The notes under the pieces: model-generated
The model's input: only the letters and a program-made list of their open reading frames with translations
What the model was told of the DNA's origin: nothing
The model's database searches: none
Origin: Verrucomicrobiota bacterium
GTDB taxonomy: Bacteria > Verrucomicrobiota > Verrucomicrobiia > Limisphaerales > UBA11358
Reading direction: 5' to 3'
Assembly: GCA_049510295.1 (NCBI GenBank)
Contig: JBEKZC010000004.1
Span: 4,224 to 68,223 of the forward strand
DNA: 64,000 nucleotides
In this document: positions 22,758 through 42,641 of the stretch, in pieces
Numbering within the stretch: the first letter of the stretch is position 1
How the letters are laid out: each line of letters starts with the position of its first letter
Program-made: the position numbers and the translations under genes

Positions 22758-23102
22758 GCACTTTGAGGGGGTCAGGTGCATGAATTTGCGATTGCAACTT
22801 CAATTGCCAGAGGTATTTGCATATCATCGGAAGGGAATACCCGCCAGATGGTTCAATGGCCGCCTCGGAAAGCGTTTTGCTTGATCATTATGGTGCGGTT
22901 AGCACAATTATCGGCCGAGTGACAAGCTTTGCTTTTCGTTTATGTAAATATCTACTTGACAAACAAGCGCCGGCGTGCAAACTAAGACTCATCATTCTAT
23001 GAATGAATTGGCTGATAACAAATGCTGGGTATAAGCTGTGAGCACGCTCCAGACTGGCATGCAAAAGATTGGGTTTCGAATTGATGTCGAAATAACACAC
23101 AT

Positions 23103-24407
23103 ATGAACGCTTCTGGCAAATCGCGTTTTGGTAGGAAGCTGCAAAAAGCACGGGAACGAATCGGCTGGTCTCAAAAAGTGCTTGCAGACAAAGTCGGTGT
23201 ATCACGCGTGACATTGGCGAGTTGGGAGGCCGGCAACTCTGCCCCCGATGGCGCGATGGCCTTGAAGTTGGCCAAGCAGCTGGACTCCGATGCCATCGAA
23301 TTCTTCCTTTTGGCGACATACCAGAAGGCAGCCACTACGGATTCGCTGTCAGCGGAGCTTGAGACGTTCGTTTTTGAACTCCTTGAAGAAAAGGGAATGT
23401 TGGCAGCACGTCACGGGGGATTACATAAACCTACCAGTCATTTGAGTCTGGTGGATTCGCTTCGGGCGTACTCTCCTATGGTGATTATCACGGGTGACAA
23501 GAGAGAGGATCCCCCAAAGAACGCGGGCGATCTTTTTGCCTTCTCAAACAGTTCGCTCGACGAGCGTTGGATTTGTTCACTTCGTTTACCCCCGGACACC
23601 GAAAAGATTTCAGACAAAGTTGTAATGACCGCTCCGGAAAAGTGGTTACGAGAAAACCTAGGCAATAAGCACATACTGTGCGTCGGATCGGGTGCGGCAA
23701 ACCTTTACGCGAGAGAATTCAACGATTCATTTCTCTTCCGCTTTAACATTACTCGCGCGAGCAAAGCCAGCTGGGAGGAGAATCGTGACAAAATCAAGAA
23801 GATGCCCCAATACGAACTCGTTGACTACGCTCAAAAGCAGAGGGATAGGCTGAAATACGAAATGCACCGGTTTAAGCCACCAGGCTTTGTTGACTACAAC
23901 TACGAATATCTTACGCTGGGAGTTGATCTACCTCAAGACATGGACTTCGGAGTCATCAGCTTAGGGCGAAATCCTTGGGCTGCAAAGAGTGATCCGAAAT
24001 TTGCGATTCTCGCTGCAGGGGTTCACCTCCCAGGAACAGCACATGCGGTAAAGTTTCTGTCTGACCCGACGAATTTTGAAGAACATCCATTCGGTGGCGT
24101 TATAGATGTTGAAGTCCCGGCTGTGGAGCACCGCGGAGCGGATATCCCCTGGTACGAGAAAATTGGCAAGTGTAAAGCATATTGGCATAGTGCGGGGAGC
24201 AAGCCATTGACGTACACGCCAGAGAAACTTCGTAAGAGCCTGCAGAATTGGCTCAAGCAACTTGAAAAGGGGCAGCTCGAAGTGGATGTAGCCCTCAATA
24301 AGGCGGAGATTGAACGGCACATCGACACGATTGATATGTTGGCGTATGCGAAGGTTCAACAACAAAAACTCAGTGCGGCAAATGGAGTTGAAGAGGAAAG
24401 TGGCTAG
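23103..24407 (+). CDS. XRE-type HTH fused to an uncharacterised ~350-aa C-terminal domain
   Basis: 434 aa. N-terminus RKLQKARERIGWSQKVLADKVGVSRVTLASWEAGNSAPD; I cannot assign the rest (..ILCVGSGAANLYAREFN.., ..FAILAAGVHLPGTAHAVKFL..) to a family. Confidence 0.6.
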   Translation: MNASGKSRFGRKLQKARERIGWSQKVLADKVGVSRVTLASWEAGNSAPDGAMALKLAKQLDSDAIEFFLLATYQKAATTDSLSAELETFVFELLEEKGMLAARHGGLHKPTSHLSLVDSLRAYSPMVIITGDKREDPPKNAGDLFAFSNSSLDERWICSLRLPPDTEKISDKVVMTAPEKWLRENLGNKHILCVGSGAANLYAREFNDSFLFRFNITRASKASWEENRDKIKKMPQYELVDYAQKQRDRLKYEMHRFKPPGFVDYNYEYLTLGVDLPQDMDFGVISLGRNPWAAKSDPKFAILAAGVHLPGTAHAVKFLSDPTNFEEHPFGGVIDVEVPAVEHRGADIPWYEKIGKCKAYWHSAGSKPLTYTPEKLRKSLQNWLKQLEKGQLEVDVALNKAEIERHIDTIDMLAYAKVQQQKLSAANGVEEESG

Positions 24408-24562
24408 AAGCGCACTTATGCTAGTTATCGAGTGGCGGCGCTTGCCTTTCGGCTTCTTCAAGCACGCGCATAAAACTGGCTTTAGGGCATTATCAGGCTT
24501 TACTACCTTGATAATGAACTATTATTCGAGATATGACCCAGTTGAACAAAGGATAGACTACA

Positions 24563-27500
24563 ATGGCTACTAAAATGACCTGCCCAGTTAACAAGGAAAC
24601 GGTGCGTGCAGCTAAAGAGGCAGTCCGGTTAGTCGGGTTCGGACTTGGAAATCTGATGTATCGCATCTACAGGGGCGAAATCCACAAATCAGACTGGAAC
24701 GCCACGGATCGAGAAAACGCCAAGGGTACGGACGTGTTTCTTCTTGGCGGTTCCATCTGCACGAACGGCTACACGCAGCAACTGTTGCCACTTATTGCGC
24801 AAAGGCAGCTTTTGTCAATCGACCCAGACTTTGCAGGCAAAGTGCGCATTTTCACGCCGTATATGGAGTCTGGTCATGCAGGAGCTTTTGGCGCCTACTT
24901 TATGGCACTCACTGAGCACGTGAGGAAGGAATTGCGATCTAAGGCGGAAGATATTTACGCTAGGAACAAGGTACCTATTCTGCCGCTCATCGATATTGGT
25001 GGCACCAAGGTCAACTTGGTGCTTGCGTACTTGGATCAGGAGGGGGAGCTCACCTTAGACATTCTTGAAAGTCACAGATATGTGACCCCAATTAGTGAGC
25101 CAGAGGTTTTTTATCCTCGCTTAGCATCACTTCTGGCCGCACCACTGGCTGCAATCCGGTCGAATGACCTTTTTGAACTCATTCCCGTGCTTGCGGTTGG
25201 GCAACCCGGCCGCTTCGAAGATCCGAAAGGCGAGATAGGCATTGGCACTGCCAAGGATCTTGGGCCGAAGTTTCCTGGTTGTGTTCCATCTAAGCTTCTT
25301 GCCAGGTCGTTGCAACCAGACTTTGGCGATATCGATGTTTATTGCGCGAATGATGGGCGCTGCCAGTTTCTCGGGATTGGCGTTCTAGGCCGTAAAAGCG
25401 AACTTCAGAGATGGAAGGATCTCCACGATCACAAAGTCGCTTACCTAGGCCTAGGAACTGGTTTGGGAGCCGGATTTGGAAAGATCGACAAAGATGGTTA
25501 CGTAAAGCCGTTCTCGATGCACAACGCATTTGATATTCTTGCCGACAAAAAACTTGAGGAACTTCCGGCCTCCGAGCACGTGGCCAAGCCAGTTCTCTCA
25601 ATGCCCTATCAGTACGGCGACTTGCTATCCGGGAAGTTTTTCAGAAAATTCATGCGCGACGTTGATCTCACGCGATTTGACAATGGCCAACCGACGTTGT
25701 TTCTGGCCTGTTCCAGTGCGGGGTGTTTAATTGGACAGCGGACACAGGAGCGAGCGCTACTCGCGGCAGACGTGAGAATCTCCCCGCTTAATGCAGTCCT
25801 CCTGAACGAAATACTCGCCGAGGAAGTCGTAACTGCCAAAACCGAAGAGATCGTCGAGCGGTCACGACAAGAACTGGAGAGGGAGCTTTATCGTACACTG
25901 GATATCATGGCCGATGAACTTGGCAAGACGCTCCGAGACAACGTTCGCGGATGCGCTTACGCGGACGTAATCGAACAAGTCGCCTGCGTGAAGCGCCGCG
26001 GTCGTCGCGTACAATTTATTGGTATTGGCAAATCCCACTCGATCGGCAGGGATCTGGCTTACATTTACAACAATCTTGGCATTGACAGCGCGTCTTGTGA
26101 ACTGACAGGTGCGAATTCAGAGAATCTGACGAATCTTCACGAGGATGATCTCGTCTTTCTGATTTCAAATAGTGGCCATGCTGCCGAATTGCTCCAGCTC
26201 GTTCCCTATATTCACCGCAAGCGTTGCTTGACTGTTGCACTTACGGGGGATAAGACGTCACCACTCGCTGATTGGTGCTCGTATTTCGTCAACACTCACG
26301 TGAATGTGAATCCGCATCCTATACCGGAAGCGCCGACTACGAGCACGATGTCTGCACTCGCTGCCGGCACAGCGATTGGAATGGTGGTCTCATATCTGTT
26401 TGATTACGATGCTAACGACTTCTTTCTCGACCACCCCAACCTCCAGTTTAACGTGGAATTTCCCGTGTCTGGAGTGCGAGCCGACGCCGCGTTCGACAGG
26501 CTCACGAAGGTGGAAGACATCTTTCAGCGGTTTGCCGCTTCGATTGGAGGTTTGCGCGACGATCATGAGTTTGTGCCAACGATGATCTCGTTGACACAAC
26601 GAATCCTCGCGTCGCACTACAACGGGCGGACGATATTCTTTACTGGCGCAGGTGCATCGTTACGGGTTGCCGAGAAGATTGCTGCGACGCTCACCAGCAT
26701 CGGTATCGATGCTTCCGCTGTTAATTCAGCGCAATTACCGCATGGTGATTTTGCCCACATTCGACATGGTGATTTGCTGGTCATCATCTCGTTCAGCGGT
26801 GAGACGCGGCAACTTCTCCACATTCATGAGGTCGCCCAGGACAAAAAAGTTGACTGCGTAGTAATCACAGCCAAGAGGAATTCGTCGCTCGCGCGTAAGT
26901 CTCCGCCGGGCCTCTGCTTGATAGCCGGAGAGGGGGCCGATGATACCGACCTCTGTGCAATCCCTGATCAAAAATTGCTCTCGTCTTTCATCAACTTAAC
27001 GGTTGGTGATGCTCTGGCCGTGATTCTTGGCCAAGTCTTGGGGCGAACTACTCAGGATTTCATGTATGAAGGCCATCGGGGAGGTGTGGCCGCGCGCGCG
27101 CAAGCGCGTTTGGACGACAAACTGCTGAGCGAACTTGGAGAAGATCTTGCCCACCAGATTGCATCCAATCCCGAAAAGCTTGCGGAAATCAACAATCCGC
27201 CAGCCGGCAAAGTTGCTATTCCAGTGACCGGGGAGCACCTGATTTCATATGACCGGCGCAGTTCTGGGCCGTCTGTTGGTTCAGAGGTCATGATTTTCGG
27301 TATGGGTGGAATTGGCCTTGCTTATCTAGCGCCCATCTTCAGCAAACTTGGAAAGAAGATTTTGTTCGTCGAAAAGGACCGTGAACGAATTCGCACAATG
27401 CAACAAGTTGGATTTCGATATGATGTGCGTTGTGTTGGCGACTGTGAAGAATGTATGGCCAACATTGCAATAGGTCGTGTGTCGGTCATTTCGAGCGAGG

Positions 27501-28486
27501 AACGAGATTCAATAACCGCGAACGCGTTGCGGGTTGATACGATTTTTACCGCTGTCGGTGTTGACAACGTCAAGTCGCTGCTCGAAACCATCGCCGATAT
27601 TATCATAGTCCGATATCAGTTCCGGGTAGAGGTTCCACTAAACATTGTGTTCAGTGAGAATTTTCCTGTTGTAGAAAATCCGCTCGCGCACAACCGTCAT
27701 CGCTTGCGTGAGATGCTGGCTAGTCCCGAGTTGAAGGTGTATTTTGACCGGTTCGTCGGGCTAGTCCCCGCGATCGACGAAGCAGTGGTGCCGGAGGTGA
27801 AAACGGAGTCACTTAAAAATCCTATTTTCATCGAGGCGAATTGCGCCGTGCTGTTTGTCGATCGTCGTCAATGGTGCTATCGCTCCAAGCGTGATCACAA
27901 AGAGGAGCCAAACTTTGGGAACCAGTTTGCTTTTACAGAGTCGTTCTTGCCTCTTCACATGAGGAAGCTTTGGGTCCACAATATGGCTCATGCCATCATT
28001 GGCTACTTGGGGTATTTTTCCGGTCATCAATTTGTTTACGATGCCGTGATGGATCAAAAAATCAAAGAACTTACGATTCGAGCGATGCGTGCGGTCGGGC
28101 ATGAACTCTACCGTCGCTGGAGTTATCGAGAAACCAAGCAGCCAACACTAGCGAAATACATCAGTTGGCGATGGGAGCGCTATTGCAATAAAGCATTAAA
28201 AGACCCGGTGACACGGCTGTGCCGAGATCCCGAGCGAAAGCTAAAACGAGACGATCGTCTCGTTGGTGCTGCGAACTACTTACGCCGATACGCGGGACGA
28301 ACGAAGGAAACGGATCAGGCCATTGTCGATATCCTTACCGGAGTAGTAGCTGCAATTCATTATGCAGAGAAAAACATCGGTACGAACCCAGAAGTGTTGT
28401 ATGCGCAAGTGACCCGCGATCTTGTGAATATTGACTCGGAATTAATGAATCGTGCCAAGGCAGCATTCCGCATGTTCTGCCATTGA
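24563..28486 (+). CDS. 1307-aa fusion protein: ASKHA sugar-kinase (ROK/glucokinase-like), two SIS domains and a mannitol-dehydrogenase-like domain
   Basis: Kinase motifs: LIDIGGTKVNLVL, VLAVGQPGRF, CANDGRCQFLG, YLGLGTGLGAGFG. SIS 1: VQFIGIGKSHSIGRDLAYIYNNLGI..VFLISNSGHAAE. SIS 2: IFFTGAGASLRVAEKIAATLTSIGI..VIISFSGETRQL. C-terminus: Rossmann MIFGMGGIGLAYLAPIF plus ..LWVHNMAHAIIGYLGY.. as in the MtlD family. Confidence 0.7.
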   Translation: MATKMTCPVNKETVRAAKEAVRLVGFGLGNLMYRIYRGEIHKSDWNATDRENAKGTDVFLLGGSICTNGYTQQLLPLIAQRQLLSIDPDFAGKVRIFTPYMESGHAGAFGAYFMALTEHVRKELRSKAEDIYARNKVPILPLIDIGGTKVNLVLAYLDQEGELTLDILESHRYVTPISEPEVFYPRLASLLAAPLAAIRSNDLFELIPVLAVGQPGRFEDPKGEIGIGTAKDLGPKFPGCVPSKLLARSLQPDFGDIDVYCANDGRCQFLGIGVLGRKSELQRWKDLHDHKVAYLGLGTGLGAGFGKIDKDGYVKPFSMHNAFDILADKKLEELPASEHVAKPVLSMPYQYGDLLSGKFFRKFMRDVDLTRFDNGQPTLFLACSSAGCLIGQRTQERALLAADVRISPLNAVLLNEILAEEVVTAKTEEIVERSRQELERELYRTLDIMADELGKTLRDNVRGCAYADVIEQVACVKRRGRRVQFIGIGKSHSIGRDLAYIYNNLGIDSASCELTGANSENLTNLHEDDLVFLISNSGHAAELLQLVPYIHRKRCLTVALTGDKTSPLADWCSYFVNTHVNVNPHPIPEAPTTSTMSALAAGTAIGMVVSYLFDYDANDFFLDHPNLQFNVEFPVSGVRADAAFDRLTKVEDIFQRFAASIGGLRDDHEFVPTMISLTQRILASHYNGRTIFFTGAGASLRVAEKIAATLTSIGIDASAVNSAQLPHGDFAHIRHGDLLVIISFSGETRQLLHIHEVAQDKKVDCVVITAKRNSSLARKSPPGLCLIAGEGADDTDLCAIPDQKLLSSFINLTVGDALAVILGQVLGRTTQDFMYEGHRGGVAARAQARLDDKLLSELGEDLAHQIASNPEKLAEINNPPAGKVAIPVTGEHLISYDRRSSGPSVGSEVMIFGMGGIGLAYLAPIFSKLGKKILFVEKDRERIRTMQQVGFRYDVRCVGDCEECMANIAIGRVSVISSEERDSITANALRVDTIFTAVGVDNVKSLLETIADIIIVRYQFRVEVPLNIVFSENFPVVENPLAHNRHRLREMLASPELKVYFDRFVGLVPAIDEAVVPEVKTESLKNPIFIEANCAVLFVDRRQWCYRSKRDHKEEPNFGNQFAFTESFLPLHMRKLWVHNMAHAIIGYLGYFSGHQFVYDAVMDQKIKELTIRAMRAVGHELYRRWSYRETKQPTLAKYISWRWERYCNKALKDPVTRLCRDPERKLKRDDRLVGAANYLRRYAGRTKETDQAIVDILTGVVAAIHYAEKNIGTNPEVLYAQVTRDLVNIDSELMNRAKAAFRMFCH

Positions 28487-28523
28487 TGCTCTTTGCACCG
28501 AAGGCAGGTGATTGCTTTCACAA

Positions 28524-28553
28524 AAAGGCAACGAATAGGGGTTCGTTGCCTTT
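28524..28553. terminator. Conserved hairpin of HTH1 unit 1 (bidirectional terminator-like)
   Basis: aaaggcaacgaa/tagggg/ttcgttgccttt. A T-run follows on the minus-strand reading, and the hairpin lies 38 nt after the stop of the 1307-aa gene. Confidence 0.55.
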
Positions 28554-28555
28554 GG

Positions 28556-28852
28556 CTATTTTGGACGTTGTTTCGTCAATGTCGCGAACGGGTCATAACC
28601 CATATACGCGATAATTCGAGCGTGATAGGGAACTGTTGGAAACAGCCGGTCACATTCCCAAAGACTCAGAGACCTTGGGCTAACCCCAAGCATTCGAGCC
28701 GCTTCCGATTGCCGGATTCCCGCGCCAAACCGTTTCTTCTTGAGATGTTGGCCGAGGGTCGTAGGCTCTTTTGCGATTGGAAAACTGCGAGTCCAAACCG
28801 GTGCTACGTCTTTGCGCGGCACGCTCACAAGCCTGTCGCAAAAAGGCAACAT
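28556..28852 (-). CDS. Small XRE-like HTH protein, HTH1 copy 1
   Basis: 98 aa: MLPFCDRLVSVPRKDVAPVWTRSFPIAKEPTTLGQHLKKKRFGAGIRQSEAARMLGVSPRSLSLWECDRLFP.. Confidence 0.65.
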   Translation of the reverse strand: MLPFCDRLVSVPRKDVAPVWTRSFPIAKEPTTLGQHLKKKRFGAGIRQSEAARMLGVSPRSLSLWECDRLFPTVPYHARIIAYMGYDPFATLTKQRPK

Positions 28853-28859
28853 CGCGCAC

Positions 28860-28972
28860 CGACTTTATTGGGGTCAGTTGCATGAACTTGTGATTGCATC
28901 CCGCTCGTGTTGAATTACTTGTAAACCCCTCAAAAAAGGCAACGGTCGGGGTTTTCAGAAATTCCGCATTTC
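28860..28972. repeat. Junction right-arm repeat (module B start)
   Basis: cgactttattggggtcagttgcatgaacttgtgattgcat..ttgaattacttg..aaaaaggcaacggtcgggg..tttcagaaattccgcatttc is homologous to 37965..38080. Its first 39 nt are also homologous to 22758..22796. Confidence 0.7.
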
Positions 28973-29537
28973 TGATGATTAGACCCAGTCCTCAAACTGA
29001 CTCTCTGGTGATTCGAAAAGGTAAATCCAATCAGATTCGTTTTCTGTCGAGGCAGTGGCGCACGGCGGGGACAAGCGTTTGCGGTGATATGAACGAGGAA
29101 TAGCCTGGTGAGGAGTCGGCTCTGTCTTACGAAGTCGAGAAATGAAATAGGCTAAGAATGGAATCCCGGCTGGTTTCAATTAAACATCCCTTGCATTAAC
29201 CCTTGAATATGTTATGAAATCACCGCCTCAAAGTGACCGGTTTTGATTCGACCCCGGCTGGCTGGTTTTGAAGTGACCGGTGACAAAAATTGGTTAGCCG
29301 AGGAATCGAGAGGGGAATGTCCCCGAACACCCGCCTCACACTCCCTGAAACAGTGCCGACTGAAACTAAATTAAGTTAACCTATTGCAGCCTCGACCCCA
29401 AAGATTTCTGGTGCCAAACATATTTGACAACACCGGTGCCAATACAAATGAATTCAACGTAGTAAATTGACTGTGTGATGCAACACCGCGCGTCGATAGT
29501 GCCAGAATAAACATGAACGCTTCTTATGTCTTCACAT

Positions 29538-31202: not shown

Positions 31203-31240
31203 TAAAATTGAAAAGCTATGGGTTAATTACAATTCATTCA

Positions 31241-31471: not shown

Positions 31472-31545
31472 CGTCTCCCTCCAAGAGTATTGCCCGGTCC
31501 GCCGCCGGAAATTTGGCTTCGATGTTTTGAATTAATTAAGCGGAT

Positions 31546-35700: not shown

Positions 35701-37098
35701 CCAGGGTTCCACATTATATACGTCGCTCCAATTGGCCACGGCAATCAGCTGGCCGGCGGGCAACTGGAGCGAGATGCTCGTGAGTTGTTGCACCCTGCCT
35801 GGCTGCCTCCACACCCGGCCGCCGAGCGACCGGAGGCTGGCCAGCGTCTGGTTGACGTTGGGCGAGTTGAACACTTGAACGGTCACATTGACCATCTGGT
35901 TGGAAGGCTGGCTCGAAGCGATTTCTTGCAATGAGGCCTCCAGCCGGTAATAAGGATGATAGGCATGATGGCCTGTGATGTAGGACCGGGTTGCCGCCAG
36001 TTTGTCCAGTCTGGCCAGGCTCTGCAAATTTCCCCACACGACGTACCCATTGGCAGGAATGTACCAGACTGTCTGCACCCCCGTGTTCTTCAGCTCGGAC
36101 AGCCAGGCATTCTGAATCGGGCCGGCGTATTGCACCATCCAAAATTGAAAGCCATTTGTGCGCGCCTCACTCAGGTTGGGCGGAATGCCCGGCTCGCCCG
36201 TCTGAGTGTTGATCTGAAGCCCGCCTCGAAGAGGCATCGCGTCGAAATCATAGCGGATGGTCACGCTGGGCGCGTTCAACAGCGCTGGTGGAGCCTGGCT
36301 GGCCGTCACGCTCCAGAGCGAAAAAGCGGTGTAATTGGCGAGGTTGACGGCTCCACTCGCGGCCAGTTGACTGGTCCGGTTGGTGTCGGTTCTGTCAACC
36401 AGGATCTTGTGCGCAAGATTCGTCTCTATAATGGCGCTCAGGTTCATGCCGAACACAACGTCCGGGTTGGTGGGTGTAGTCTGGTGAACTTCCACCGCCA
36501 CTACATTGTCACCCTGGACAAGACTTCCAGTTGAAAAAGTCAAGGGCTGCACCTCTTCTCCGGACGACGCGCTGGCAGCAGGAGTTTGATCGGTGACAAC
36601 CCCATCTGGCATCCGCAACCGCCCGACCTCCGTTCCATTCAGGTAAAACACTGCCCCGTCGGCCACGTAATTGGACGCAATCAGCGCGAAACCGACAGTA
36701 TTGGCGGGGAGCGTGAAATGAGTCCTGAAGTAATGCGTAATCCGGCCTCCTTCAGGTGTCAGCCTGGTTCGAATCGATACCGGGTATGGGTGGCGCACGT
36801 CGGTGTAATGGCCGAAAAAACCTGATCCCTGCTGCCAGGCGGAATCGTCATACACAGCACTCCTCCACACAGTGCCCTTGCCGGCACTTGGTTTCAGGCG
36901 GATTAGTTCTTCAGGCTTTCCGCTCGTGGTTTGACTATCGTCGTATCGCCAGGAATTCGTGAAATTGAGCAATTCGCCAGCGTTGGCATTGGGTGTCATG
37001 AAAACAAGACAAGAAACCAACGCCACAAACATCCTGACAACTATTATTGTAACAATGTTCCATTTGTTTTTTATCATATGGTACCTATGGTGGCTCAT
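32731..37098 (-). CDS. Secreted subtilisin-like serine protease (peptidase S8) with large N- and C-terminal extensions
   Basis: 1455 aa with a signal/TM N-terminus. Asp region VDVVDDGVDNG, His region GLQGHGNLNAGIVAA, Ser region CSGTSQATPAVAGSASLIYE. Confidence 0.8.
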   Translation of the reverse strand: MSHHRYHMIKNKWNIVTIIVVRMFVALVSCLVFMTPNANAGELLNFTNSWRYDDSQTTSGKPEELIRLKPSAGKGTVWRSAVYDDSAWQQGSGFFGHYTDVRHPYPVSIRTRLTPEGGRITHYFRTHFTLPANTVGFALIASNYVADGAVFYLNGTEVGRLRMPDGVVTDQTPAASASSGEEVQPLTFSTGSLVQGDNVVAVEVHQTTPTNPDVVFGMNLSAIIETNLAHKILVDRTDTNRTSQLAASGAVNLANYTAFSLWSVTASQAPPALLNAPSVTIRYDFDAMPLRGGLQINTQTGEPGIPPNLSEARTNGFQFWMVQYAGPIQNAWLSELKNTGVQTVWYIPANGYVVWGNLQSLARLDKLAATRSYITGHHAYHPYYRLEASLQEIASSQPSNQMVNVTVQVFNSPNVNQTLASLRSLGGRVWRQPGRVQQLTSISLQLPAGQLIAVANWSDVYNVEPWISPTLQDEVQGQIVAGNVVTSGVNIVPQPTTNATYTPYRLWLVSKGFPLNPTNYPIVDVVDDGVDNGQAASPGHPDFYYFGITNNASRIAYIGSLTSDPLGDGLQGHGNLNAGIVAAYDTGTLSPDSIDTNGYNIGMGISPLGRVAGTKIFGNTGDYTSQSDAGVVGYSYGHGAGLTSDSWGASTYGVYNAEDQAYDSLTRNASNSSPAALHEMLDVFAAGNDGNNTMTPAPPSTVASPGSAKNVLTVGATENVRVVPPVYGNGNCWPDTASNADNVAYFSERGPTADGRYKPDIMAPGTKIQGLASQDPGYNGGSVCLQYYPPGQTWYAMCSGTSQATPAVAGSASLIYENYHNLLSYQNEGNPTTPSPAMLKALVINSARYMASGNYGTDTLPSDNFGWGDVDLGLAFDGLPRLLVDQTQIFNSSGSSYTYPGTLSVYDTTKPLRVTLVWSDAPGNTTGNAYVNDLNLTVTAGGTYLGNVFSGQYSTPGGSADTKNNVENVFLPAGVTNPITVTVTANNLAAGAIPGNTNPVNQDFALVIYNAIQATTPVADVYIRDDAADNGTEPNPNYVNNTANMWESPDIWNRLDPAPDSTQTYEQPEYGVDNYINVHLWNHGTTRVPTSVTATGVVKLYWAYGSSSLSWPNQWNWFADIPTTVPANSDQIVNILWHPPSTGHICIMAQWVSGQDPLHAQLTSDVNFNTGENNNIAWRNMEIVTAPPNTPIIYSFIMRNPVGSGTSAVVYNLRLRALPTTKSDTFLGKGQIFFDLGPTLHQRWLRAGAQGTGFKLVTDRQTSIIGSSTFSVGDLVNLPSLASRLKQPADAVSLYLKGRLSAATLKTLAKYQGTDHDPSSQTALVKDFNRIIRGQSIYDAQRFAGVVLRPETQLLLTQNPEGDDLLRLNRLLLEDAYPMEISRSRIVFQVLNAAGTYIKGIPINPGEDVMVNLKFISQTKQARVFKVDATQMTVSNTTIGGMTCLVNTGPKHRAH

Positions 37099-37523
37099 TT
37101 ATAAATGCTAAATACGTTATCAACCGACGGCCCAAAACTGAAGGCGCAGCCCTCATTATCGACAACTGTGCCGCTCACGCAGTTCATGCGGCACCAAGGC
37201 CACCAAAGCTTCAGCACTACCTCGTTCAAAGTGTTCCCCTTGGTGGGAATCCGAAATTCCTTTTCGGTCTTCTCCATGTGCAGCTTGAAGGTCTCATGCG
37301 GGAGACAACGGACGAATTGAAACGGGGGAAAATTGATCAGAAGAGAGATAATTCTTGCCTGCCAGCCTTGTATACGCATCAGCCGTTCGCCTAAATCCCT
37401 TCGTCTTTTACTTTTCATGCCTAGCCCCATGACACGCCCAAAACATGATGCCTCAAAGGCGAATTCCTTTTTACACTGCTCGAAAAATAATGCAAGAACT
37501 TTTCTAATAATTCGATTTGTCAC
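37095..37523 (-). CDS. Hypothetical protein, translationally coupled to the S8 protease
   Basis: 142-aa ORF whose stop overlaps the S8 start (ATGA). No motif recognised. Confidence 0.35.
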   Translation of the reverse strand: MTNRIIRKVLALFFEQCKKEFAFEASCFGRVMGLGMKSKRRRDLGERLMRIQGWQARIISLLINFPPFQFVRCLPHETFKLHMEKTEKEFRIPTKGNTLNEVVLKLWWPWCRMNCVSGTVVDNEGCAFSFGPSVDNVFSIYK

Positions 37524-37617
37524 GATAATGATACATTCCTGTTACCGACTCGGCGGATAAAAGCCAAAAACCATGCTGTAATCTATGGCCTCTACGGGGG
37601 CGCTGGATAAGGTAACT

Positions 37618-37964
37618 GCCTTTCACAAAAAGGCAACGACTCGGGGTTCGTTGCCTTTGGCTGTTTTGGGCATTATTTCGCCAGTTTCTCGAACGGGTTA
37701 TAGCCCAGATACGCAACGATTCGAGCGTGATAGGGAGCGGTTGGAAACAGCCTATCGCATTCCCAAAGACTCAGAGACCTTGCGCTAACCCCTAGTATTT
37801 GAGCGGCTTCCGATTGCCGGATTCCCGCGCCAAACCGTTTCTTCTTGAGATGTTGGCCGAGGGTCGTAGGCTCCTTTGCAATTGGAAAACTGCGAGTCCA
37901 AACAGGTGCAACGTCTTTGCGCGGCACGCTCACAAGCCCGTCGCAAAAAGGCAACATCGCGCAC
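37618..37964. repeat. HTH1 unit copy 2
   Basis: Near-identical to copies 1 and 3; includes the hairpin at 37629..37658. Confidence 0.85.
37673..37957 (-). CDS. Small XRE-like HTH protein, HTH1 copy 2
   Basis: 94 aa: MLPFCDGLVSVPRKDVAPVWTRSFPIAKEPTTLGQHLKKKRFGAGIRQSEAAQILGVSARSLSLWECDRLFP.. Confidence 0.65.
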   Translation of the reverse strand: MLPFCDGLVSVPRKDVAPVWTRSFPIAKEPTTLGQHLKKKRFGAGIRQSEAAQILGVSARSLSLWECDRLFPTAPYHARIVAYLGYNPFEKLAK

Positions 37965-38080
37965 CGACTTTATTGAGGTCAGTTGTATGAACTTGTGATT
38001 GCATGCTGTTTTTATTGAATCACTTGCAAAACCTCTCAAACAGGCAACGTTCGGGGGAGGTTTCAGAAATTCCACATTTC
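37965..38080. repeat. Junction right-arm repeat (module C start)
   Basis: Homologous to 28860..28972. It overlaps the 3' end of HTH2. Confidence 0.7.
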
Positions 38081-38421
38081 CAACAGTATGAATCGGGGCT
38101 TCGTTTTCTCGGAACCGGCACAGGTGGTGTGTAGCCAAGAAATTCCCGAATCTTCTTTGTCATCCTGCGCGATGGAGGGGTGATACCGCGCTCCCAATTG
38201 CTGACCGATGCGGAAGAAATTCCAATCTTTGCGGCAACGTCTGATTGCAACCAGTGCAATTCCAGGCGGTGTTTTTTGATTTGCTCGCCGAGTGTCTGTG
38301 GCTGTACCGGAATTCGCTGGTTCAATTTCCAATGCCGTGGGTATGGCCGGCGTGGCCGGGAAGTCTGAACAGGACAGAGCGAGAGAAGGAGCAGTATGTT
38401 TTTTATATGGAGTGGTTGCAT
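38020..38421 (-). CDS. XRE-like HTH protein, HTH2 (distant paralogue of HTH1)
   Basis: 133 aa: ..QPQTLGEQIKKHRLELHWLQSDVAAKIGISSASVSNWERGITPPSRRMTKKIREFLGY.. Only a 3' relic of the equivalent gene remains in module B (28950-28972). Confidence 0.6.
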   Translation of the reverse strand: MQPLHIKNILLLLSLCPVQTSRPRRPYPRHWKLNQRIPVQPQTLGEQIKKHRLELHWLQSDVAAKIGISSASVSNWERGITPPSRRMTKKIREFLGYTPPVPVPRKRSPDSYCWKCGISETSPERCLFERFCK

Positions 38422-38562
38422 AAATTATCATGCAACCATCACTATTCCTGAGACGACTTCTAGTGAGAATTTAAAACAGCTTCGGTGATGGCGCTCTATT
38501 TTTCTGGCGCAGACATCAAAAAAAGAGTAATGTTCTAATGGATTCCAAAGGTGTAGTTTTCG

Positions 38563-41500
38563 GTGGCTCGGAGAATAAAATCTGTTACTCCGCTGCCCAA
38601 TGAACCACGGGATATTGAAGTTGTTTTGCAAGATGGCGAGCTGAATTTGCAACGGGGAGATGCCGCTGCCAGCTTGGCAATAACTAGACACCAGGGTATG
38701 TGGCAAGTGTTGAAAACTGTGGTTGCGATGAGCGTGGCCGATGTTGTTGGCTTCGGGGCAAAATTACGCACCCTGGGGGTGATGTCTTTAGCCGGTTGCC
38801 AGCGGCAAACCATTCCCGCGCTGTTCCTCCTCCTGTTCACGCCGGTCACGGCCTTTGGCGAAAACCTGCCACCCCAATCAATCCGGGTTGTGGTGGACAA
38901 CAATTACCCGCCTTATGTGTTTCAGGACAATGACGGGAAGTTGCAGGGGATACTGATTGATCAATGGCGGCTCTGGGAGAAAAAGACGGGCATCAAGGTC
39001 GAGATTCAGGGCATGGATTGGAGCGAAGCACTCCGTCGCATGGAGGCCGGTGAGTTCGATGTGATCGACACCGTTTTCAAGACCGAGGCGCGAAGCGCCT
39101 TCCTCGATTTTTCGAAACCGTATACCCGGATTGAAGTGCCGATTTTCTTCCAAAGAGACATCTCCGGCATCACTGACCTGAAGTCGCTCACAGGATTCCC
39201 CGTCGCCGCCAAGGCGGGAGATGCCGCCATCGACCTGCTCAAACAGAATGACATTACCACAGTGCTGCTGTTCAACAACTATGAGAGTATCGTCAAGGCC
39301 GCGCAACAGCGCAAAGTCAACGTGTTTGTCGTAGATGCTCCGCCGGCGCTTTATTTTCTCAACAAACTGGACATCGGGACCCAGTTCAGACGCTCAGCGC
39401 CAATCAACGTGGGTGAATTTCATCGGGCGGTAAGGAAAGGAAATACCGCCCTGCTAAAAACAGTTGAAGCAGGCTTTGCCGCCATCACGCCCGGTGAATT
39501 GAAACAGATCGAGGAGAAATGGTACGGGACAACCCTCGCCGGCGGTTTTTATTTGCGCTACCTGGGATACGTTGCGACCGCAGGGGTGCTGTTCGTTTTG
39601 GTTTTGCTCGGTTGGAACCGCGCGCTCAGCCGGGAGGTCAAAAAACGGGCGACCGCTTTGCAGGAGAGCGAGGTGCAATTCCGGCTCATCATGGAGAACC
39701 TGGCGGACATGGTGGCCGTGCTTGATTTGGACGGAAACCGCTTTTACAACAGCCCCTCCTACCGGGCCATCCTGGGCGACCCGGACAAGCTGCGTGGGTC
39801 GTCCTCTTTCACTGAAATCCACCCGGAAGATCGGGAACGGGTTGAACAAGTGTTTCGGGAGACAGTCCGGACGGGCGTCGGACAGCGTCTGGAATACCGC
39901 TTACTGGACCAGGCTGGCCAGGCGCGTCAGATTGAATCCCAAGGCAGCGTGATTCGAGACGGCCAGGGAAAAGTCTCCAAAGTGGTGGTCGTGTCCCGCG
40001 ACGTGACCGAGCGCAAGCGGGCGGAGATTCGCATTCAATACCTTAACCGGGTCTATGCCATGTTGGGCGACATCAACCAGACCATCGTGCGGGTGCGTGA
40101 CCAGCAGGAATTATTTACCACCGCCTGCCGCATCGCGGTTGAAACCGGAAGATTTCGCTTGGCGTGGATTGGCCGGCTGGATCCAACCTCCCGGAAGATT
40201 GAACCGGTCGCCCACACCGGTGTGAACGAAGGTTACCTGGAGCAATTGAACATCGTGCTCGGTGAGAATATCAACGCCGACGGCCCGACGGCCACCGCAG
40301 TGCGCTGTGGCAAACACATGGTCTGTAATGACATCGAGCACGACCCGCGCATGGGCTCGTGGCGGGAAGAGGCATTGCGGCGCGGCTATCGCGCTTCGGC
40401 GGCGTTCCCGCTCAAGGTCGGCGGCCGGATCATCGGCGCTTTTAACCTCTACGCCAGTGAACCGGGGTTTTTCGACGAGGATGAACTGCGTCTGCTGGAT
40501 GAACTGGCGACAGACATTTCCTTTGCCATGGAAGTAAATCAGCGCGAAGTAGAACGCCGACAAGCGGAGGATGAGTTGCGCTGGAGGACGGCTTTCTTTG
40601 AAGCCGAAGTGGATTCCTCCCTTGACGGCATATTGGTGGTGGACAGTCAGGGAAAGAAAATTATCCAGAATGAGCGGATGAACGAATTATTGAAAATTCC
40701 CAGGCATATTGCCGAGAACAAGGATGATGCCCAGCAGCTCCAGTTCGTCACAAACCAGACTAAAAACCCCAAGCAGTTCATCGAGAAAGTGGCCTACCTT
40801 AATTCCCATCCGGATGAGGTCAGCCAGGACGAGCTGGAATTGGTTGATGGAACGATCCTGGAAAGATATTCGTCGCCCGTCCGGGACAAAGCTGGAAAAT
40901 ATTACGGAAGAATCTGGACCTTCCGCGACATCACCAAGAGCCGGAAGCTGGAAGCCCAATTCCGCCAGTCCCAGAAAATGGAAGCCTTTGGCCAGCTGGC
41001 CGGCGGTGTGGCCCACGACTTCAACAACATCCTGACCGTGATTCACGGCAATGCCTCCCTGATGTTTGACGAACAATTGAAGCCCGCTGAACGAACCGAC
41101 TGCGTGCACCAGGTCGTCCAAGCCGCCGAGCGCGCCGCCAGCCTGACCCGCCAATTGCTCCTGTTCAGCCGCAAGCAGGCCATGCAACCGGCCAACCTGG
41201 ATTTGACCGAGGTGGTGGGCGGCATGACGAAGATGCTTAAGCGCATCCTGGGCGAGGATATTGCCTTGCAGACCGATTTCGCGCCGGATTTGCCGCCCGT
41301 GTTTGGCGATGCCGGCATGATCGAGCAGGTGCTTTTGAACCTGGCCGTCAACTCCCGCGACGCCATGCTCCGGGGCGGCCGATTGACCATCACCACCGGA
41401 GCGGAAATGGTGGAACAAAAGCAGGCGCTGCAAAATCCCGACTCTTCGCCCGGATTGCACATCTGGCTGGCGGTCAGCGACACCGGTTGCGGGATCGCCC

Positions 41501-42102
41501 CGGAAAATCTGCCGCGCATCTTTGAACCCTTTTTCACCACCAAAGAGGTAGGCAAGGGCACCGGCCTTGGACTGGCCACCGTTTATGGCATCGTACAACA
41601 ACATCATGGCTGGATTACCGTGACCAGCGAAATCGGCAAAGGCACCACGGTTCGTGCTTATTTTCCTGCCGCGACCGGCGCAAAGGCCAACGAAAAAAAT
41701 GTATCGGCCGTGTCACAACCGCCGTGCGGCCAGGAAACCATTCTGGTCGTCGAAGATGATTTGTCGGTCCGCCTGCTGACGACCCTCCTTCTGCAACGCT
41801 GCGGCTACAATATCTTGCAAGCTGACTCGGGAACGGCGGCGCTGGAAATATGGCGGGAGCACAAGGGGCAAATCCAACTTCTGTTGACGGACATGGTCAT
41901 GCCGGGCGGTTTGACGGGCCGGGAACTGGCCGAACAGCTCGGCCGGGAACAAAGCGGACTGAAGGTCATTTACATCAGCGGTTACAGCCTAGAGTTCACC
42001 AAAAAAGAACTTTCCCTGATCGAAGGGCGAAATTTTCTTCAGAAGCCGTTCTCCTCGCTCAAGCTGGCACAAACCGTGCGCGACGCCCTGGATGCCAAAT
42101 AA
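38563..42102 (+). CDS. Hybrid sensor histidine kinase (periplasmic SBP-3-like domain, PAS, GAF, PAS, HisKA, HATPase and receiver)
   Basis: The track ORF starts at a GTG at 38563; the more likely start is Met at 38782 ([26 protein letters not shown]). H-box [15 protein letters not shown]-box [12 protein letters not shown]-boxes [21 protein letters not shown], receiver [22 protein letters not shown]. Confidence 0.85.
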
Positions 42103-42294
42103 GTCTGTCCGGGCAAAGCGGACTTAATCTTTGAAAATCTGATGGATTCCAAGTCGCTCTTCCTGACCCCAGACACGGAACATTCATAGAATTGGCGGTT
42201 TGGAAGGGTGGCGAATCCACCCTTATAACCCTGGTCACCAGATGGCAAAAGGGGTGCAAAAACGACAGGATTCGTACCCTCATATCGGATGACC

Positions 42295-42641
42295 GCCTTT
42301 CACAAAAAGGCAACGACTAGGGATTCGTTGCCTTTGGCTGTTTTGGGCCTTATTTCGTTGACTTCTTGAAAGGGTCATAGCCTAGATACGCAACGATTCG
42401 GGCGTAATAGGGAGCGGTTGGAAACAGCCTGTCGCATTCCCAAAGACTCAGAGACCTTGCGCTAACCCCTAGTATTTGAGCGGCTTCCGATTGCCGGATT
42501 CCCGCGCCAAACCGTTTCTTCTTGAGATGTTGGCCGAGGGTCGTAGGCTCTTTTGCGATTGGAAAACTGCGAGTCCAAACCGGGGCTACGTCTTTGCGCG
42601 GCACGCTCACAAGCCTGTCGCAAAAAGGCAACATCGCGCAC
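42295..42641. repeat. HTH1 unit copy 3, truncated at the comM junction
   Basis: Near-identical to copies 1 and 2 up to ..aacatcgcgcac. comM sequence follows instead of the cgacttt.. arm. It includes the hairpin at 42306..42335. Confidence 0.85.
42350..42634 (-). CDS. Small XRE-like HTH protein, HTH1 copy 3
   Basis: ATG at 42634 (MLPFCDRLVSVPRKDV..). The track ORF adds 3 codons from a GTG at 42643 that lies in comM DNA. Confidence 0.65.
   Translation of the reverse strand: MLPFCDRLVSVPRKDVAPVWTRSFPIAKEPTTLGQHLKKKRFGAGIRQSEAAQILGVSARSLSLWECDRLFPTAPYYARIVAYLGYDPFKKSTK

What the first reader, a model, noticed from the sequence alone, without database searches (positions are those of the whole stretch)
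22758..42641. Recombinase-less tandem array of three cargo modules, each ending in a ~345-bp HTH-gene/att unit, with attP-like internal junctions
- **Seen in sequence:**
  - Three near-identical units lie at 28515-28859, 37618-37964 and 42295-42641. Each contains a conserved hairpin, a 94-98-aa XRE-like gene on the minus strand, and the string ..aaaaaggcaacatcgcgcAC.
  - In copies 1 and 2 this string continues cgactttattg[g/a]ggtcagttg[c/t]atgaacttgtgattgcat.., and the two copies stay homologous for about 110 nt.
  - In copy 3 the string is joined directly to comM (acctgacggc).
  - At the opposite end of the block, comM (..aacccgAC) is joined to gcactttgagggggtcaggtgcatgaatttgcgattgca. This matches the post-junction arm at 31 of 39 positions.
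  - So the outer junctions each carry one element arm (attL/attR-like), and the two internal junctions carry both arms (attP-like).
- **Established knowledge:** this is the pattern expected when related elements integrate successively into the att site of a resident element (tandem accretion, as in CIME/ICE arrays).
- **No recombinase inside:** the 19.9 kb contains no recognisable integrase. The only recombinases nearby belong to insertion 1, whose att sequences are unrelated.
- **Inference:**
  - This may be a cis-mobilisable cassette system targeting comM and serviced in trans, with the small HTH protein as a possible directionality or regulatory factor.
  - The in-frame comM reconstruction is compatible with a 2-nt AC crossover, which would point to a serine recombinase.
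  - The three direct repeats are also substrates for module loss by homologous recombination.
Basis: partly seen in the sequence, partly recalled or inferred. Interest (0 to 1): 0.8.

Follow-up and report, generated by a model that had tools for sequence, protein, structure and literature searches.

The report
Recombinase-less cassette array in comM
A competence gene (comM) of a peat-bog Verrucomicrobium is split by three tandem gene cassettes with no recombinase of their own, which use the docking site of a related mobile element whose serine recombinase cuts comM at exactly the same two bases in sister lineages.

Summary
Three ~345-bp units, 90% alike, each hold a hairpin and a 94-98-aa cI/Cro-type HTH gene. 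All end in ...AAAAAGGCAACATCGCGC-AC. They close three cargo modules that split comM at the Thr codon of AAMNP-T-PDG.

In more than 60 related loci from Limisphaerales the same unit abuts the comM 3' piece at this AC. The third codon base varies, so the break is precise. Module number (1 to at least 5) and cargo differ between genomes.

The missing enzyme has a strong candidate. A 500-aa CcrB-like large serine recombinase lies against the comM 5' piece at the same AC, including in a lineage with 93%-identical comM. Its element shares the HTH arm. Its reconstructed attP is a perfect dyad, CAAAAAGGCAAC-N7-AC-N7-GTTGCCTTTTTG.

The window's modules carry a different left arm, which I call ARM. It is often capped by a second XRE-type gene, and no recombinase lies beside it in about 40 junctions.

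Best reading: these are integrase-less hitcher cassettes accreted by a serine recombinase supplied in trans, analogous to pseudo-SCC and CIME arrays. Activity on ARM, present-day mobility and the role of the HTH protein are all inferred. One contig shows a module-2 circle or duplication junction, but homologous recombination could also produce it.

The parts
11258..11356 (+). The first 33 codons of comM (MLARVCSAALNGIEAYPVEVEVNAGYGDTLVVI), cut off from the rest of the gene by insertion 1.
   Evidence: Six-frame pattern search. Collinear with the intact comM of L072 and L048.
11351..21796 (.). Insertion 1, a separate 10.4-kb element in comM codon ~33. It carries its own large serine recombinase (20008-21747, minus strand), a truncated resolvase-like ORF (16198-17001) and a PLD nuclease (12700-13221). 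An 8-bp direct repeat, AATAATTG, flanks it. It is not part of the array.
   Evidence: Its recombinase is 22% identical to the comM-AC recombinase family. tblastn with it found no match in any of the 44 array loci then held, L023-L071.
21797..22757 (+). comM 5' piece (codons ~34-352), ending ...GCGGCGATGAACCCG-AC. This is the B half-site plus the crossover AC at 22756-22757.
   Evidence: Pfam ChlI/Mg_chelatase; sequence.
22758..28859 (.). Module 1. It holds left arm ARM1 (27-mer at 22770-22796), a 434-aa HTH_3 protein (23103-24407, +), a 1307-aa SIS-SIS-mannitol-dehydrogenase fusion (24563-28486, +), and unit 1.
28515..28859 (-). Unit 1. It holds the hairpin (28524-28553), the HTH gene (28556-28852), the P arm CAAAAAGGCAAC-ATCGCGC, and AC at 28858-28859.
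28860..37964 (.). Module 2. It holds ARM2 (27-mer 28872-28898; an extra AAAAAAGGCAAC at 28933-28943), a radical-SAM/SPASM-PqqD peptide maturase (29538-31202, -), an IS fragment (31799-32191), an S8 peptidase of 1455 aa (32731-37098, -), a 142-aa ORF (37095-37523, -), and unit 2.
37618..37964 (-). Unit 2. It holds the hairpin (37629-37658), the HTH gene (37673-37957), the P arm, and AC at 37963-37964.
37965..42641 (.). Module 3. It holds ARM3 (27-mer 37977-38003), a 133-aa XRE-type gene reading toward the junction (38020-38421, -), a hybrid sensor kinase of 1179 aa (38563-42102, +), and unit 3.
42295..42641 (-). Unit 3. It holds the hairpin (42306-42335), the HTH gene (42350-42634), the P arm, and AC at 42640-42641 joined directly to comM.
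42640..43113 (+). comM 3' piece (T-PDGKMPHES... to the stop codon), which is the B' half-site.
   Evidence: Pfam Mg_chelatase/Mg_chelatase_C; translation.

Best explanation
The 19.9-kb block is an accretion array of three integrase-less integrative modules. They sit in the attB of a family of serine-recombinase elements that target comM in Limisphaerales (Verrucomicrobiota).

**The autonomous element.** It is about 43 kb in one genome. A 500-aa CcrB-like large serine recombinase (LSR-A) lies at one end and a cI/Cro-type HTH gene at the other. Its attP is a dyad, CAAAAAGGCAAC-N7-AC-N7-GTTGCCTTTTTG, and the crossover is at the central AC.

**The window's modules.** They keep the HTH-side half (the P arm plus the HTH gene, which is under purifying selection). 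In place of the recombinase-side half (P') they carry a different conserved left arm, ARM. In other genomes ARM is often capped by a second XRE-type gene.

**Proposed mechanism.** Each module inserted as a circle with a P-AC-ARM junction. The target was comM itself or the att junction of a resident module. The serine recombinase came in trans from a co-resident or visiting autonomous element. The same enzyme could excise modules singly or in blocks.

**What is shown.**
- The anatomy of the array.
- The base-exact AC boundaries in many genomes.
- Variable module number and cargo.
- The recombinase family at the same AC.
- The shared P arm.

**What is inferred.**
- That this recombinase accepts ARM as a half-site.
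- That the modules still move.
- That the HTH protein acts as a repressor or regulator on the repeated AAAAAGGCAAC motif.
For: **1. Precise site.** In 27 distinct junctions the unit end ...CATCGCGC-AC is followed by NCCNGAYGG... of comM, and the base after AC is a, c, g or t.

**2. Specificity.** At least 25 of 41 loci from species-representative genomes, all Verrucomicrobiota-type MAGs or bins, have the unit against the comM 3' piece.

**3. Variable arrays.**
- L023 has at least 5 modules, with spacings of 5.3, 3.3, 3.3 and 3.3 kb.
- L033 has 2 modules and L048 has 1. L088 has at least 2.
- Cargo is unrelated between genomes; only the units and ARM are shared.

**4. ARM is joined at AC to two kinds of partner.** It abuts comM 5' in the window, L048, L088 and L097. 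L061 shows the same AC join to a diverged comM-like ...GCAATGAATCCC, which the tblastn did not detect as comM. It abuts P in about 24 junctions. The spacing is always AC + 12 nt + GGTCAG.

**5. The enzyme.**
- L033 has comM5'-AC-aggtttc-GTTGCCTTTTTGTGAG followed by a truncated serine recombinase.
- Full-length homologues (P0121 and P0125, 500 aa) lie in the same position in L072-L075.
- The six full-length homologues read, plus the truncated L033 copy, end ...KRQRN(L/V)S, and all but P0139 continue with the antisense of comM AAMNP (G/D-S-S...). The 120 listed homologues are at least 70% identical.
- comM in L072 is 99.7% (aa) and 93% (nt) identical to the window's.

**6. A whole element.** The HTH end (L040) and the recombinase end (L075) lie 43 kb apart, in the same orientation, on one 1.71-Mb contig.

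**7. Relationship to Ccr.** The best NCBIfam match of LSR-A is CcrB, at 5e-42 and below the family cut-off.

**8. The HTH gene is functional.** dN/dS is about 0.1 in both the att-proximal and the HTH parts.

**9. Half-site logic.** Read outward from AC, the half-sites fall into two types.
- B (CGGaTTCATcGCc), P' (AGGTTTCGTTGCC) and ARM (cGACTTTATTGGG) look like one type.
- B' and P (GCC.GAC / GCGCGAT) look like the other.
- So P-AC-ARM has the same two-type layout as attP.

**10. A variant junction.** L006 joins unit 2 to ARM2, which is a circle or a tandem duplication of module 2. The switch point is confined to 36 nt around the AC.
Against: - ARM lacks the GTTGCCTTTTTG dyad partner of the autonomous attP. 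Its resemblance to the B and P' half-sites is weak: 5 of the 9 positions where B and P' agree.
- Textbook large serine recombinases recombine only attP with attB. Tandem arrays with attP-like junctions need a laxer, Ccr-like enzyme.
- No LSR-A gene is in the 64-kb window, and the rest of the genome could not be searched.
- About 35 contigs of this population show the identical three-module order; only L006 differs.
- The L006 switch interval is the second-longest identical run between units 1 and 2 (36 nt against 68 nt). Homologous recombination could have produced it.
- The 'conjugative' label for the helper rests on a T4CP-like ATPase, ArdC-N and RadC only. No relaxase or VirB4 was seen, and the element also carries defence genes.
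Confidence: 0.6

Rival explanations
1. Fossil array reshuffled only by homologous recombination. Serine-recombinase events built the array long ago, and the modules are now fixed. The 345-bp units and ARM serve only as portable homology for deletion, duplication and cassette exchange.
For: - The module order is fixed in nearly all contigs of this population.
- The L006 junction falls in a 36-nt identical run that RecA-type recombination could use.
- Many relatives show decayed junctions: truncated ARM, truncated comM 3' piece, a degenerate P in L031.
Against: - The HTH gene is under strong purifying selection in every module (dN/dS ~0.1).
- The P arm is invariant right up to AC across species whose comM has diverged by 10-25%.
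- The same ARM type is found against comM 5' in some genomes and against P in others, always breaking at AC.
- An intact helper recombinase occupies the same site in a lineage whose comM is 93% identical.
Confidence: 0.2
2. ARM-type modules use a different recombinase from LSR-A. One possibility is the second large serine recombinase family (LSR-B, ~534 aa) that shares contigs with LSR-A. Another is a CcrA/CcrB-like pair in which each protein reads one kind of half-site.
For: - LSR-A and LSR-B lie on the same contig, ERZ27249776 k141_290044 (L074 and L101).
- Three further contig lengths (166577, 265264, 55298) appear in both hit lists.
- The att half-sites fall into two sequence types.
- ARM lacks the dyad motif of the LSR-A attP.
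Against: - LSR-B is not next to any P, P' or ARM sequence in L101 or L102.
- Its orientation differs between elements.
- No recombinase of any family lies beside ARM in about 40 junctions.
Confidence: 0.15
3. Target-specific transposition with a 2-bp AC target duplication, for example by a DDE enzyme or a Tn7-like machine as at comM in Acinetobacter, rather than conservative site-specific recombination.
For: One AC at every junction fits a 2-bp duplication as well as a 2-bp crossover (reasoning).
Against: - No transposase, no terminal inverted repeats and no TnsABC-type genes are in any module.
- The recombinase-bearing relatives carry a serine recombinase whose ORF runs across the site, and their attP is a perfect dyad.
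Confidence: 0.03
4. Host Xer-type recombinases are exploited, as by IMEX elements at dif.
For: - The modules carry no recombinase.
- GGTGCGCGATG at the junction loosely recalls the XerC arm of E. coli dif. This comparison is from my own knowledge and was not tested.
Against: - The site is inside comM, not at a terminus.
- Identity between the partner sites is only 2 bp, too short for a tyrosine-recombinase overlap region.
- A dedicated serine recombinase family uses exactly this site.
Confidence: 0.02

Closest known systems
SCC composite islands with ccr-less pseudo-SCC elements at rlmH in staphylococci
   Same: - Tandem arrays of cargo cassettes sit at one att site inside or at the end of a housekeeping gene.
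- Large serine recombinases of the Ccr type do the work, and some cassettes lack recombinase genes and depend on Ccr in trans (bioRxiv 10.1101/336396).
- LSR-A's best curated family match is CcrB.
- Two different large serine recombinases share one element.
   Different: - The target is comM and the host phylum is Verrucomicrobiota.
- The CcrB match is below the family cut-off.
- The two recombinase genes lie about 29 kb apart, not in one operon.
- Every cassette keeps a cI-type HTH gene whose start codon is 6 nt from the crossover.
- The recombinase-less cassettes carry a dedicated left arm (ARM) unlike the helper's.
CIME/ICE accretion (ICESt1/ICESt3 type)
   Same: Integrase-less elements that retain att sites sit in tandem with, or in place of, an autonomous element at the same attB. 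[quoted passage not shown]
   Different: - Those systems use tyrosine integrases with longer identical cores.
- CIMEs are decayed copies that keep both original arms. L033 holds one such decayed copy. The ARM modules, however, have a distinct conserved left arm found in many genomes, so they look like a dedicated hitcher lineage rather than debris.
Dehalococcoides ssrA genomic islands
   Same: Multiple tandem islands lie at one single-copy gene. They are integrated by a CcrB-family serine recombinase (DsiB) together with a second serine recombinase (DsiA). Islands without the integration module are interpreted as cis-mobilisable elements (PMC3146451).
   Different: - Those islands are marked by a 20-bp repeat of the target's 3' end.
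- Here the identity between partner sites is 2 bp, the target gene is split, and each module carries an HTH gene.
Phage Mx8 integrase gene containing attP
   Same: The recombinase ORF runs across the attachment site, so integration changes its 3' end (PMC6070905). Here the LSR-A ORF crosses P' and the AC. When integrated it ends in antisense comM sequence.
   Different: - Mx8 Int is a tyrosine recombinase.
- Here the excised form would fuse the serine recombinase in frame to a separate HTH protein. That is an inference from the reading frame and has not been observed.
Integron cassette arrays
   Same: Short, mostly one- to three-gene cargo cassettes sit in a head-to-tail array at one site, each carrying one conserved recombination unit.
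   Different: - There is no IntI tyrosine recombinase, no attC hairpin substrate and no common promoter.
- The cassettes carry their own regulators.
- The recombinase is not encoded next to the array.

Membership tests
Accretion array of cis-mobilisable / integrase-less integrative elements | Elements are bounded by att junctions created by site-specific recombination at one attB. | tested here: met
   All four junctions in the window break at AC. The same break is seen in 27 comM 3' junctions and about 40 ARM junctions elsewhere.
Accretion array of cis-mobilisable / integrase-less integrative elements | No integrase and no transfer genes lie inside the elements. | tested here: met
   Pfam on all large ORFs. 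A six-frame HMMER search with six serine-recombinase queries found none. Tyrosine recombinases were looked for only through Pfam on the window ORFs.
Accretion array of cis-mobilisable / integrase-less integrative elements | Both att arms are shared with an autonomous element that encodes the cognate integrase. | tested here: inconclusive
   The right arm (P plus the HTH gene) is shared with the LSR-A element. The left arm is ARM, not the helper's P'.
Accretion array of cis-mobilisable / integrase-less integrative elements | Excision or mobilisation occurs when the integrase is supplied. | not testable with these tools
   The only lead is L006, a circle or duplication junction of module 2. Homologous recombination also explains it.
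Large serine recombinase att system | The crossover is 2 bp, with no longer identity between attB and attP. | tested here: met
   Only AC is common to comM and the element ends. The flanking bases vary.
Large serine recombinase att system | attP of ~40-50 bp has dyad symmetry about the crossover. | tested here: met
   The criterion is met for the autonomous element, whose reconstructed attP is CAAAAAGGCAAC-N7-AC-N7-GTTGCCTTTTTG. It is not met for the window's internal junctions (P-AC-ARM).
Large serine recombinase att system | A Resolvase + Recombinase + zinc-ribbon protein is encoded by the element. | tested here: not met
   It is absent from the window's array. It is present in the related autonomous elements in L033 and L072-L075.
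SCC / Ccr family | The recombinase scores above the curated CcrA, CcrB or CcrC cut-off, and integration is at rlmH. | tested here: not met
   CcrB scored 144 bits against a cut-off of 900. The target is comM. This is an analogue, not a member.
Integron | IntI tyrosine recombinase, attI, and attC sites. | tested here: not met
   No tyrosine recombinase domain was found in the window ORFs. Rfam found nothing in the array. The junction logic is a 2-bp crossover.
Tn7-like comM-targeting transposons (AbaR type) | TnsA/B/C-type genes, terminal repeats and a 5-bp target duplication. | tested here: not met
   None of these genes is present. There is no duplication beyond AC.

The most novel reading that the evidence does not exclude
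This would be a two-tier cassette economy run by a Ccr-like serine-recombinase element in Verrucomicrobiota.

- Dedicated recombinase-less cassettes form the lower tier. Each has an ARM/XRE left cap and a P/HTH right cap, and parasitises the att system of the autonomous element.
- They build integron-like arrays of small cargo units inside comM.
- The helper's recombinase ORF runs across attP. Only in the excised circle is it fused in frame to the cI-type HTH protein. That would give a recombinase whose C-terminus reports whether the element is integrated, a built-in directionality switch.
- Two co-resident serine recombinases each read one of the two half-site types.
Probability: 0.2. Interest if true: 0.8.

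Novelty: new variant of a known kind. Interest (0 to 1): 0.6.

Why it matters
- It extends the SCC/pseudo-SCC and CIME logic, in which cassettes live off another element's recombinase, to an uncultured soil and peat phylum and to comM as the target.
- It shows a lineage of hitcher cassettes with their own conserved end rather than mere decayed copies.
- It supplies a defined, testable att system: a 44-bp dyad attP, a protein-coding attB, natural variant half-sites, and a natural AC-to-TC attB variant. The recombinase comes from a family (large serine recombinases) that is in demand for genome engineering.
- The arrays move regulators, peptide-maturation genes and, in the helper, defence systems. 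They therefore bear on how Limisphaerales diversify in peat.
- Insertion also inactivates a gene needed for natural transformation in other bacteria. Some relatives carry a version that restores the gene.

Tried and rejected
- **Insertion-1 recombinases as the enzyme.** Rejected. tblastn with them found no match in any of the 44 array loci then held, L023-L071. The LSR is 22% identical to LSR-A, and its own ends are an unrelated 8-bp repeat.
- **The unit as a dispersed repeat.** Rejected. It occurs only three times in the window. Elsewhere it is almost always at comM or at array junctions.
- **The HTH ORF as a fragment of a gene split by the junction.** Rejected. All 170 homologues start at MLPFCD, and the longer (~160 aa) forms extend at the C-terminus with a second HTH.
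- **The hairpin as merely a terminator.** Doubtful. In the 160-aa forms the same palindrome lies inside the ORF (PKGNET..VAFLS).
- **ARM as a sigma-70 promoter for the HTH gene.** The consensus scan found none, and the 12 nt next to AC vary.
- **ARM as a copy of comM 3' or as coding continuation of comM.** No similarity was found in either sense.
- **LSR-HTH fusion proteins as evidence of circles.** None of the 120 best of the 170 HTH homologues (those listed) exceeds 175 aa, so no fusion is seen among the close relatives.
- **Known RNA families or tRNA in the array.** None.
- **Cargo as a known defence system.** Only domain-level PADLOC hits.
- **Literature on comM, serine recombinases and tandem arrays.** No description of this system was found.
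- **Context of P0117.** It gave a P-AC-P' remnant without a recombinase.
- **LSR-B flanks.** They showed no att-like motif.


Full report
**1. The observation**

The window holds three direct repeats, 28515-28859, 37618-37964 and 42295-42641. They are 90% identical over a 300-nt register.

All three end in GTCGCAAAAAGGCAACATCGCGCAC. That string occurs three times in the window and never in shuffles.

A second conserved string, GGTCAGKTGYATGAAYTTGYGATTGCA, lies 12 nt beyond the AC. It is found after units 1 and 2 and directly after the comM 5' piece, at 22770, 28872 and 37977, and nowhere else.

Each unit carries two features.
- A perfect 30-bp palindrome, with folding energy of -17 to -18 kcal/mol and a T-run on the gene's strand.
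- A minus-strand ORF of 94-98 aa with an HTH_3/HTH_31 domain.

comM is split between 22757 and 42640. Joining the two parts restores AAMNP-T-PDGKMP in frame.

The block has no recombinase. Its cargo is as follows.
- Module 1: a 434-aa HTH_3 protein and a 1307-aa SIS/mannitol-dehydrogenase fusion.
- Module 2: a radical-SAM/SPASM peptide maturase, an IS fragment and a 1455-aa S8 peptidase.
- Module 3: a 133-aa XRE-type protein and a hybrid sensor kinase.

**2. Surroundings**

comM is hit twice. Its first 33 codons lie at 11258-11356. A separate 10.4-kb element (insertion 1, about 11351-21796) follows them. A large serine recombinase sits at its right end (20008-21747), and an 8-bp repeat, AATAATTG, flanks it.

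tblastn with that recombinase found no match in any of the 44 array loci then held, L023-L071. It is only 22% identical to the recombinase family described in section 5. Insertion 1 is therefore unrelated to the array.

**3. The source population**

Exact-protein look-ups found the three HTH proteins on some 40 peat-metagenome contigs. Nearly all are 99.9-100% identical to the window and have the same three modules.

One contig differs. L006 (ERZ27249941, 3.8 kb) reads S8 peptidase ... unit 2 - AC - ARM2 ... radical SAM. That joins the end of module 2 to its own beginning. It is either an excised circle or a tandem duplication.

The switch from unit-2 alleles to ARM2 alleles is confined to 36 nt that include the AC. 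However, that stretch is the second-longest identical run between units 1 and 2 (the longest is 68 nt). Homologous recombination is therefore not excluded.

**4. Relatives**

The HTH protein has 170 homologues, and every one starts MLPFCD.

A scan of one genome per species found 41 loci, essentially all in Limisphaerales and other Verrucomicrobiota MAGs from bog, palsa and peat.

In at least 25 of these loci the unit abuts a comM 3' fragment. The join is always ...CATCGCGC-AC-NCCNGAYGG. The base after AC is a, c, g or t in different genomes, so the break is base-exact at the first two bases of the Thr codon.

Module number and cargo vary.
- L023 has at least five modules.
- L033 has two modules.
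- L048 has one 8-kb module between an otherwise intact comM 5' and 3' piece.
- L088 has at least two modules.

Only the units, ARM and sometimes the XRE133 gene are shared with the window.

**5. The recombinase**

In L033 the leftmost element meets comM 5' at the same AC, but with a different arm: AC-aggtttc-GTTGCCTTTTTGTGAG. A 5'-truncated large serine recombinase follows it.

GTTGCCTTTTTG is the reverse complement of the CAAAAAGGCAAC that lies 7 nt from the AC at the unit end. The attP of such an element is therefore a perfect dyad, CAAAAAGGCAAC-N7-AC-N7-GTTGCCTTTTTG. That is the classic layout of a large-serine-recombinase site.

Full-length homologues are 500 aa, and the 120 listed are at least 70% identical. 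Look-ups place them with their 3' end against comM 5' in L072-L075.

All seven sequences read (six full-length homologues and the truncated L033 copy) end ...EELTK(R/W/S)QRN(L/V)S. In all but P0139 the next residues (G/D-S-S...) are the antisense translation of comM AAMNP. The targeting is thus family-wide.

- In L072-L074 the comM 5' piece is 99.7-100% (aa) and 93% (nt) identical to the window's, and its N-terminus is intact. A sister lineage therefore carries the recombinase-bearing element at the very site occupied here by the array. The sample accession numbers belong to the same series as those of the window's contigs, but I did not check what the samples are.
- On one 1.71-Mb contig the HTH end (L040) and the recombinase end (L075) lie 43 kb apart in the same orientation. 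That delimits a whole element.

The element's neighbours include a T4CP-like ATPase (TrwB_AAD_bind, 1.3e-11), ArdC-N and RadC. They also include SIR2/HerA-like, Gabija-like and methyltransferase genes. I call it a putative conjugative or mobilisable element, with reserve.

Its best curated family match is CcrB, below the family cut-off.

A second serine recombinase family of ~534 aa lies on the same contig (L074 and L101). It shares three further contig lengths with the first family's hit list. This recalls the CcrA/CcrB and DsiA/DsiB pairs (PMC3146451).

**6. What the window's modules are**

They share the helper's P arm and HTH gene, but their other end is ARM.

A pattern scan of metagenomes gave 24 more ARM loci.
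- About 24 junctions are P-AC-ARM.
- Two are comM5'-AC-ARM.
- A few are rearranged.
- None has a recombinase nearby.

ARM always starts 12 nt after the AC. In many modules the XRE133 gene, a 32%-identical paralogue of the HTH gene, or its C-terminal remnant follows it.

ARM modules therefore look like a dedicated, widespread lineage of recombinase-less cassettes rather than decayed helpers. L033 does contain one true decayed helper next to an ARM module.

Read outward from the AC, the half-sites fall into two types.
- B (CGGaTTCATcGCc), P' (AGGTTTCGTTGCC) and ARM (cGACTTTATTGGG, or GCGGCCCATGGC in a minor class) form one type.
- B' (GCC.GAC...) and P (GCGCGAT...) form the other.

So attB, the dyad attP and P-AC-ARM all have one half-site of each type. 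The resemblance of ARM to B and P' is weak, at 5 of the 9 positions where B and P' agree. Whether the recombinase accepts ARM is the main open point.

**7. The HTH gene**

dN/dS among ten copies is about 0.1, both in codons 1-30 and in the HTH part. The protein is therefore maintained in recombinase-less modules.

The model has a mean pLDDT of 79. Residues 31-90 are confident and the first 30 are not. Its best PDB matches are P22 c2, 434 Cro, DdrO, R-M controller proteins and ImmR, which is a repressor fold.

Its ATG lies 6 nt from the crossover, so its upstream signals always come from the partner arm.

The motif AAAAAGGCAAC recurs in several places, and it is read in different frames by different genes. 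This argues for a DNA-level role.
- At the junction it encodes MLPFC.
- In both halves of the hairpin it encodes KGNE..VAFLS in the 160-aa forms.
- It occurs about 75 nt into ARM.
- In P' it encodes TKRQRN of the recombinase.

Which protein binds the motif is unknown.

**8. A frame relation worth noting**

The LSR-A ORF runs through P' and the AC. The frame is ...AAC CTG T|GC GCG ATG TTG.... In the excised circle, or at a P-AC-P' tandem junction, the ORF would therefore continue in frame into the HTH gene.

P0117 in L076 is a natural ORF that reads through such a remnant junction. No full fusion protein is seen among the HTH homologues listed. An open in-frame relation has roughly a one-in-four chance by itself. 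This is a lead, not a finding.

The precedent for an integrase gene that spans attP is phage Mx8, whose integrase is a tyrosine recombinase (PMC6070905).

**9. Comparison and verdict**

In how it works, the array matches three known systems.
- SCC composite islands with ccr-less pseudo-SCC elements (bioRxiv 10.1101/336396).
- CIME/ICE accretion (PMC5704250).
- The tandem ssrA islands of Dehalococcoides (PMC3146451).

It is not a member of the Ccr/SCC family by the curated score or by target. It is not an integron or a Tn7-like element either.

It differs from the known systems in four ways.
- The cassettes have a distinct left arm.
- Every cassette keeps an obligatory cI-type gene at the crossover.
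- The recombinase ORF spans the att site.
- Relatives include a gene-restoring version (see the items noticed in passing).

I rate it a new variant of a known kind, of moderate to good interest.

Noticed in passing
L039, L051, L056, L057, L067 (for example L051:9528-12116): In five genomes comM is intact and is followed by cargo (0.1-7.8 kb), the HTH unit, AC, and a second copy of the comM 3' part. The duplicated stretch runs exactly from the AC to the stop codon. The two copies are 97% alike in L056, 92% in L057, and 70-79% in the others. In L051 and L067 the intact gene reads TCA (Ser) where the others have ACN, so the crossover dinucleotide is gone. These look like gene-restoring versions of the element. 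How a serine recombinase would make them is unexplained.
   Followed up: partly
L072:10001-11503, L075:10001-11503, L076:9990-10070: The LSR-A ORF crosses its own att site. In the excised form it would be in frame with the HTH gene (..NL-CA-MLPFCD..). When integrated it ends in antisense comM sequence (..NLSGSSP).
   Followed up: partly
window 11351-21796: This is a second, unrelated element in comM, at codon ~33. It carries a 579-aa large serine recombinase (20008-21747), a truncated resolvase-like ORF (16198-17001), a PLD-type nuclease (12700-13221) and several ORFs without family matches. An 8-bp repeat, AATAATTG, flanks it.
   Followed up: partly
window 4974-11077: A dispersed repeat of about 100-370 nt occurs in five direct copies, starting at 4974, 5377, 7099, 8348 and 10907. 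The copies are 76-88% identical to the reference copy and lie between genes upstream of comM.
   Followed up: no
window 3600-11257 and 43114-53062: Both flanks of comM are also variable. In L048 the ETF gene (window 2558-3586) lies right next to the comM start. In L033 and L042 the sequence after comM continues with window 53062-57358 and skips the ECF sigma / CsgG-like block.
   Followed up: no
L074 and L101 (ERZ27249776 k141_290044); L043:18291-19879: A second large serine recombinase family (~534 aa) lies on the same element as LSR-A, about 29 kb away. It has no recognisable P, P' or ARM motif beside it. Its role is unknown.
   Followed up: partly
L031:13777-14980: A 1.2-kb mini-module lacks an HTH gene. 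Its P arm is reduced to ..CAACATCGCGC-AC and is still joined exactly to ARM.
   Followed up: no
L034:9960-10010; L076:10040-10090: These are chromosomal junctions of the type P-AC-P' (helper-type dyad). One of them has an extra base. They show that helper-type ends also occur in tandem.
   Followed up: partly
window 31799-32191: A 130-aa ORF in module 2 carries Zn_ribbon_IS1595 and DDE_Tnp_1_4 hits. This is an insertion-sequence remnant inside the cargo.
   Followed up: no
P0029 (Sedimentisphaerales MAG, 1.3-kb contig): An ADP-ribosylglycohydrolase ORF reads straight into ..CAMLPFCER.. of an HTH unit. The contig is binned to a Planctomycetota MAG. This may be a different neighbour, a different host or a binning error.
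   Followed up: no
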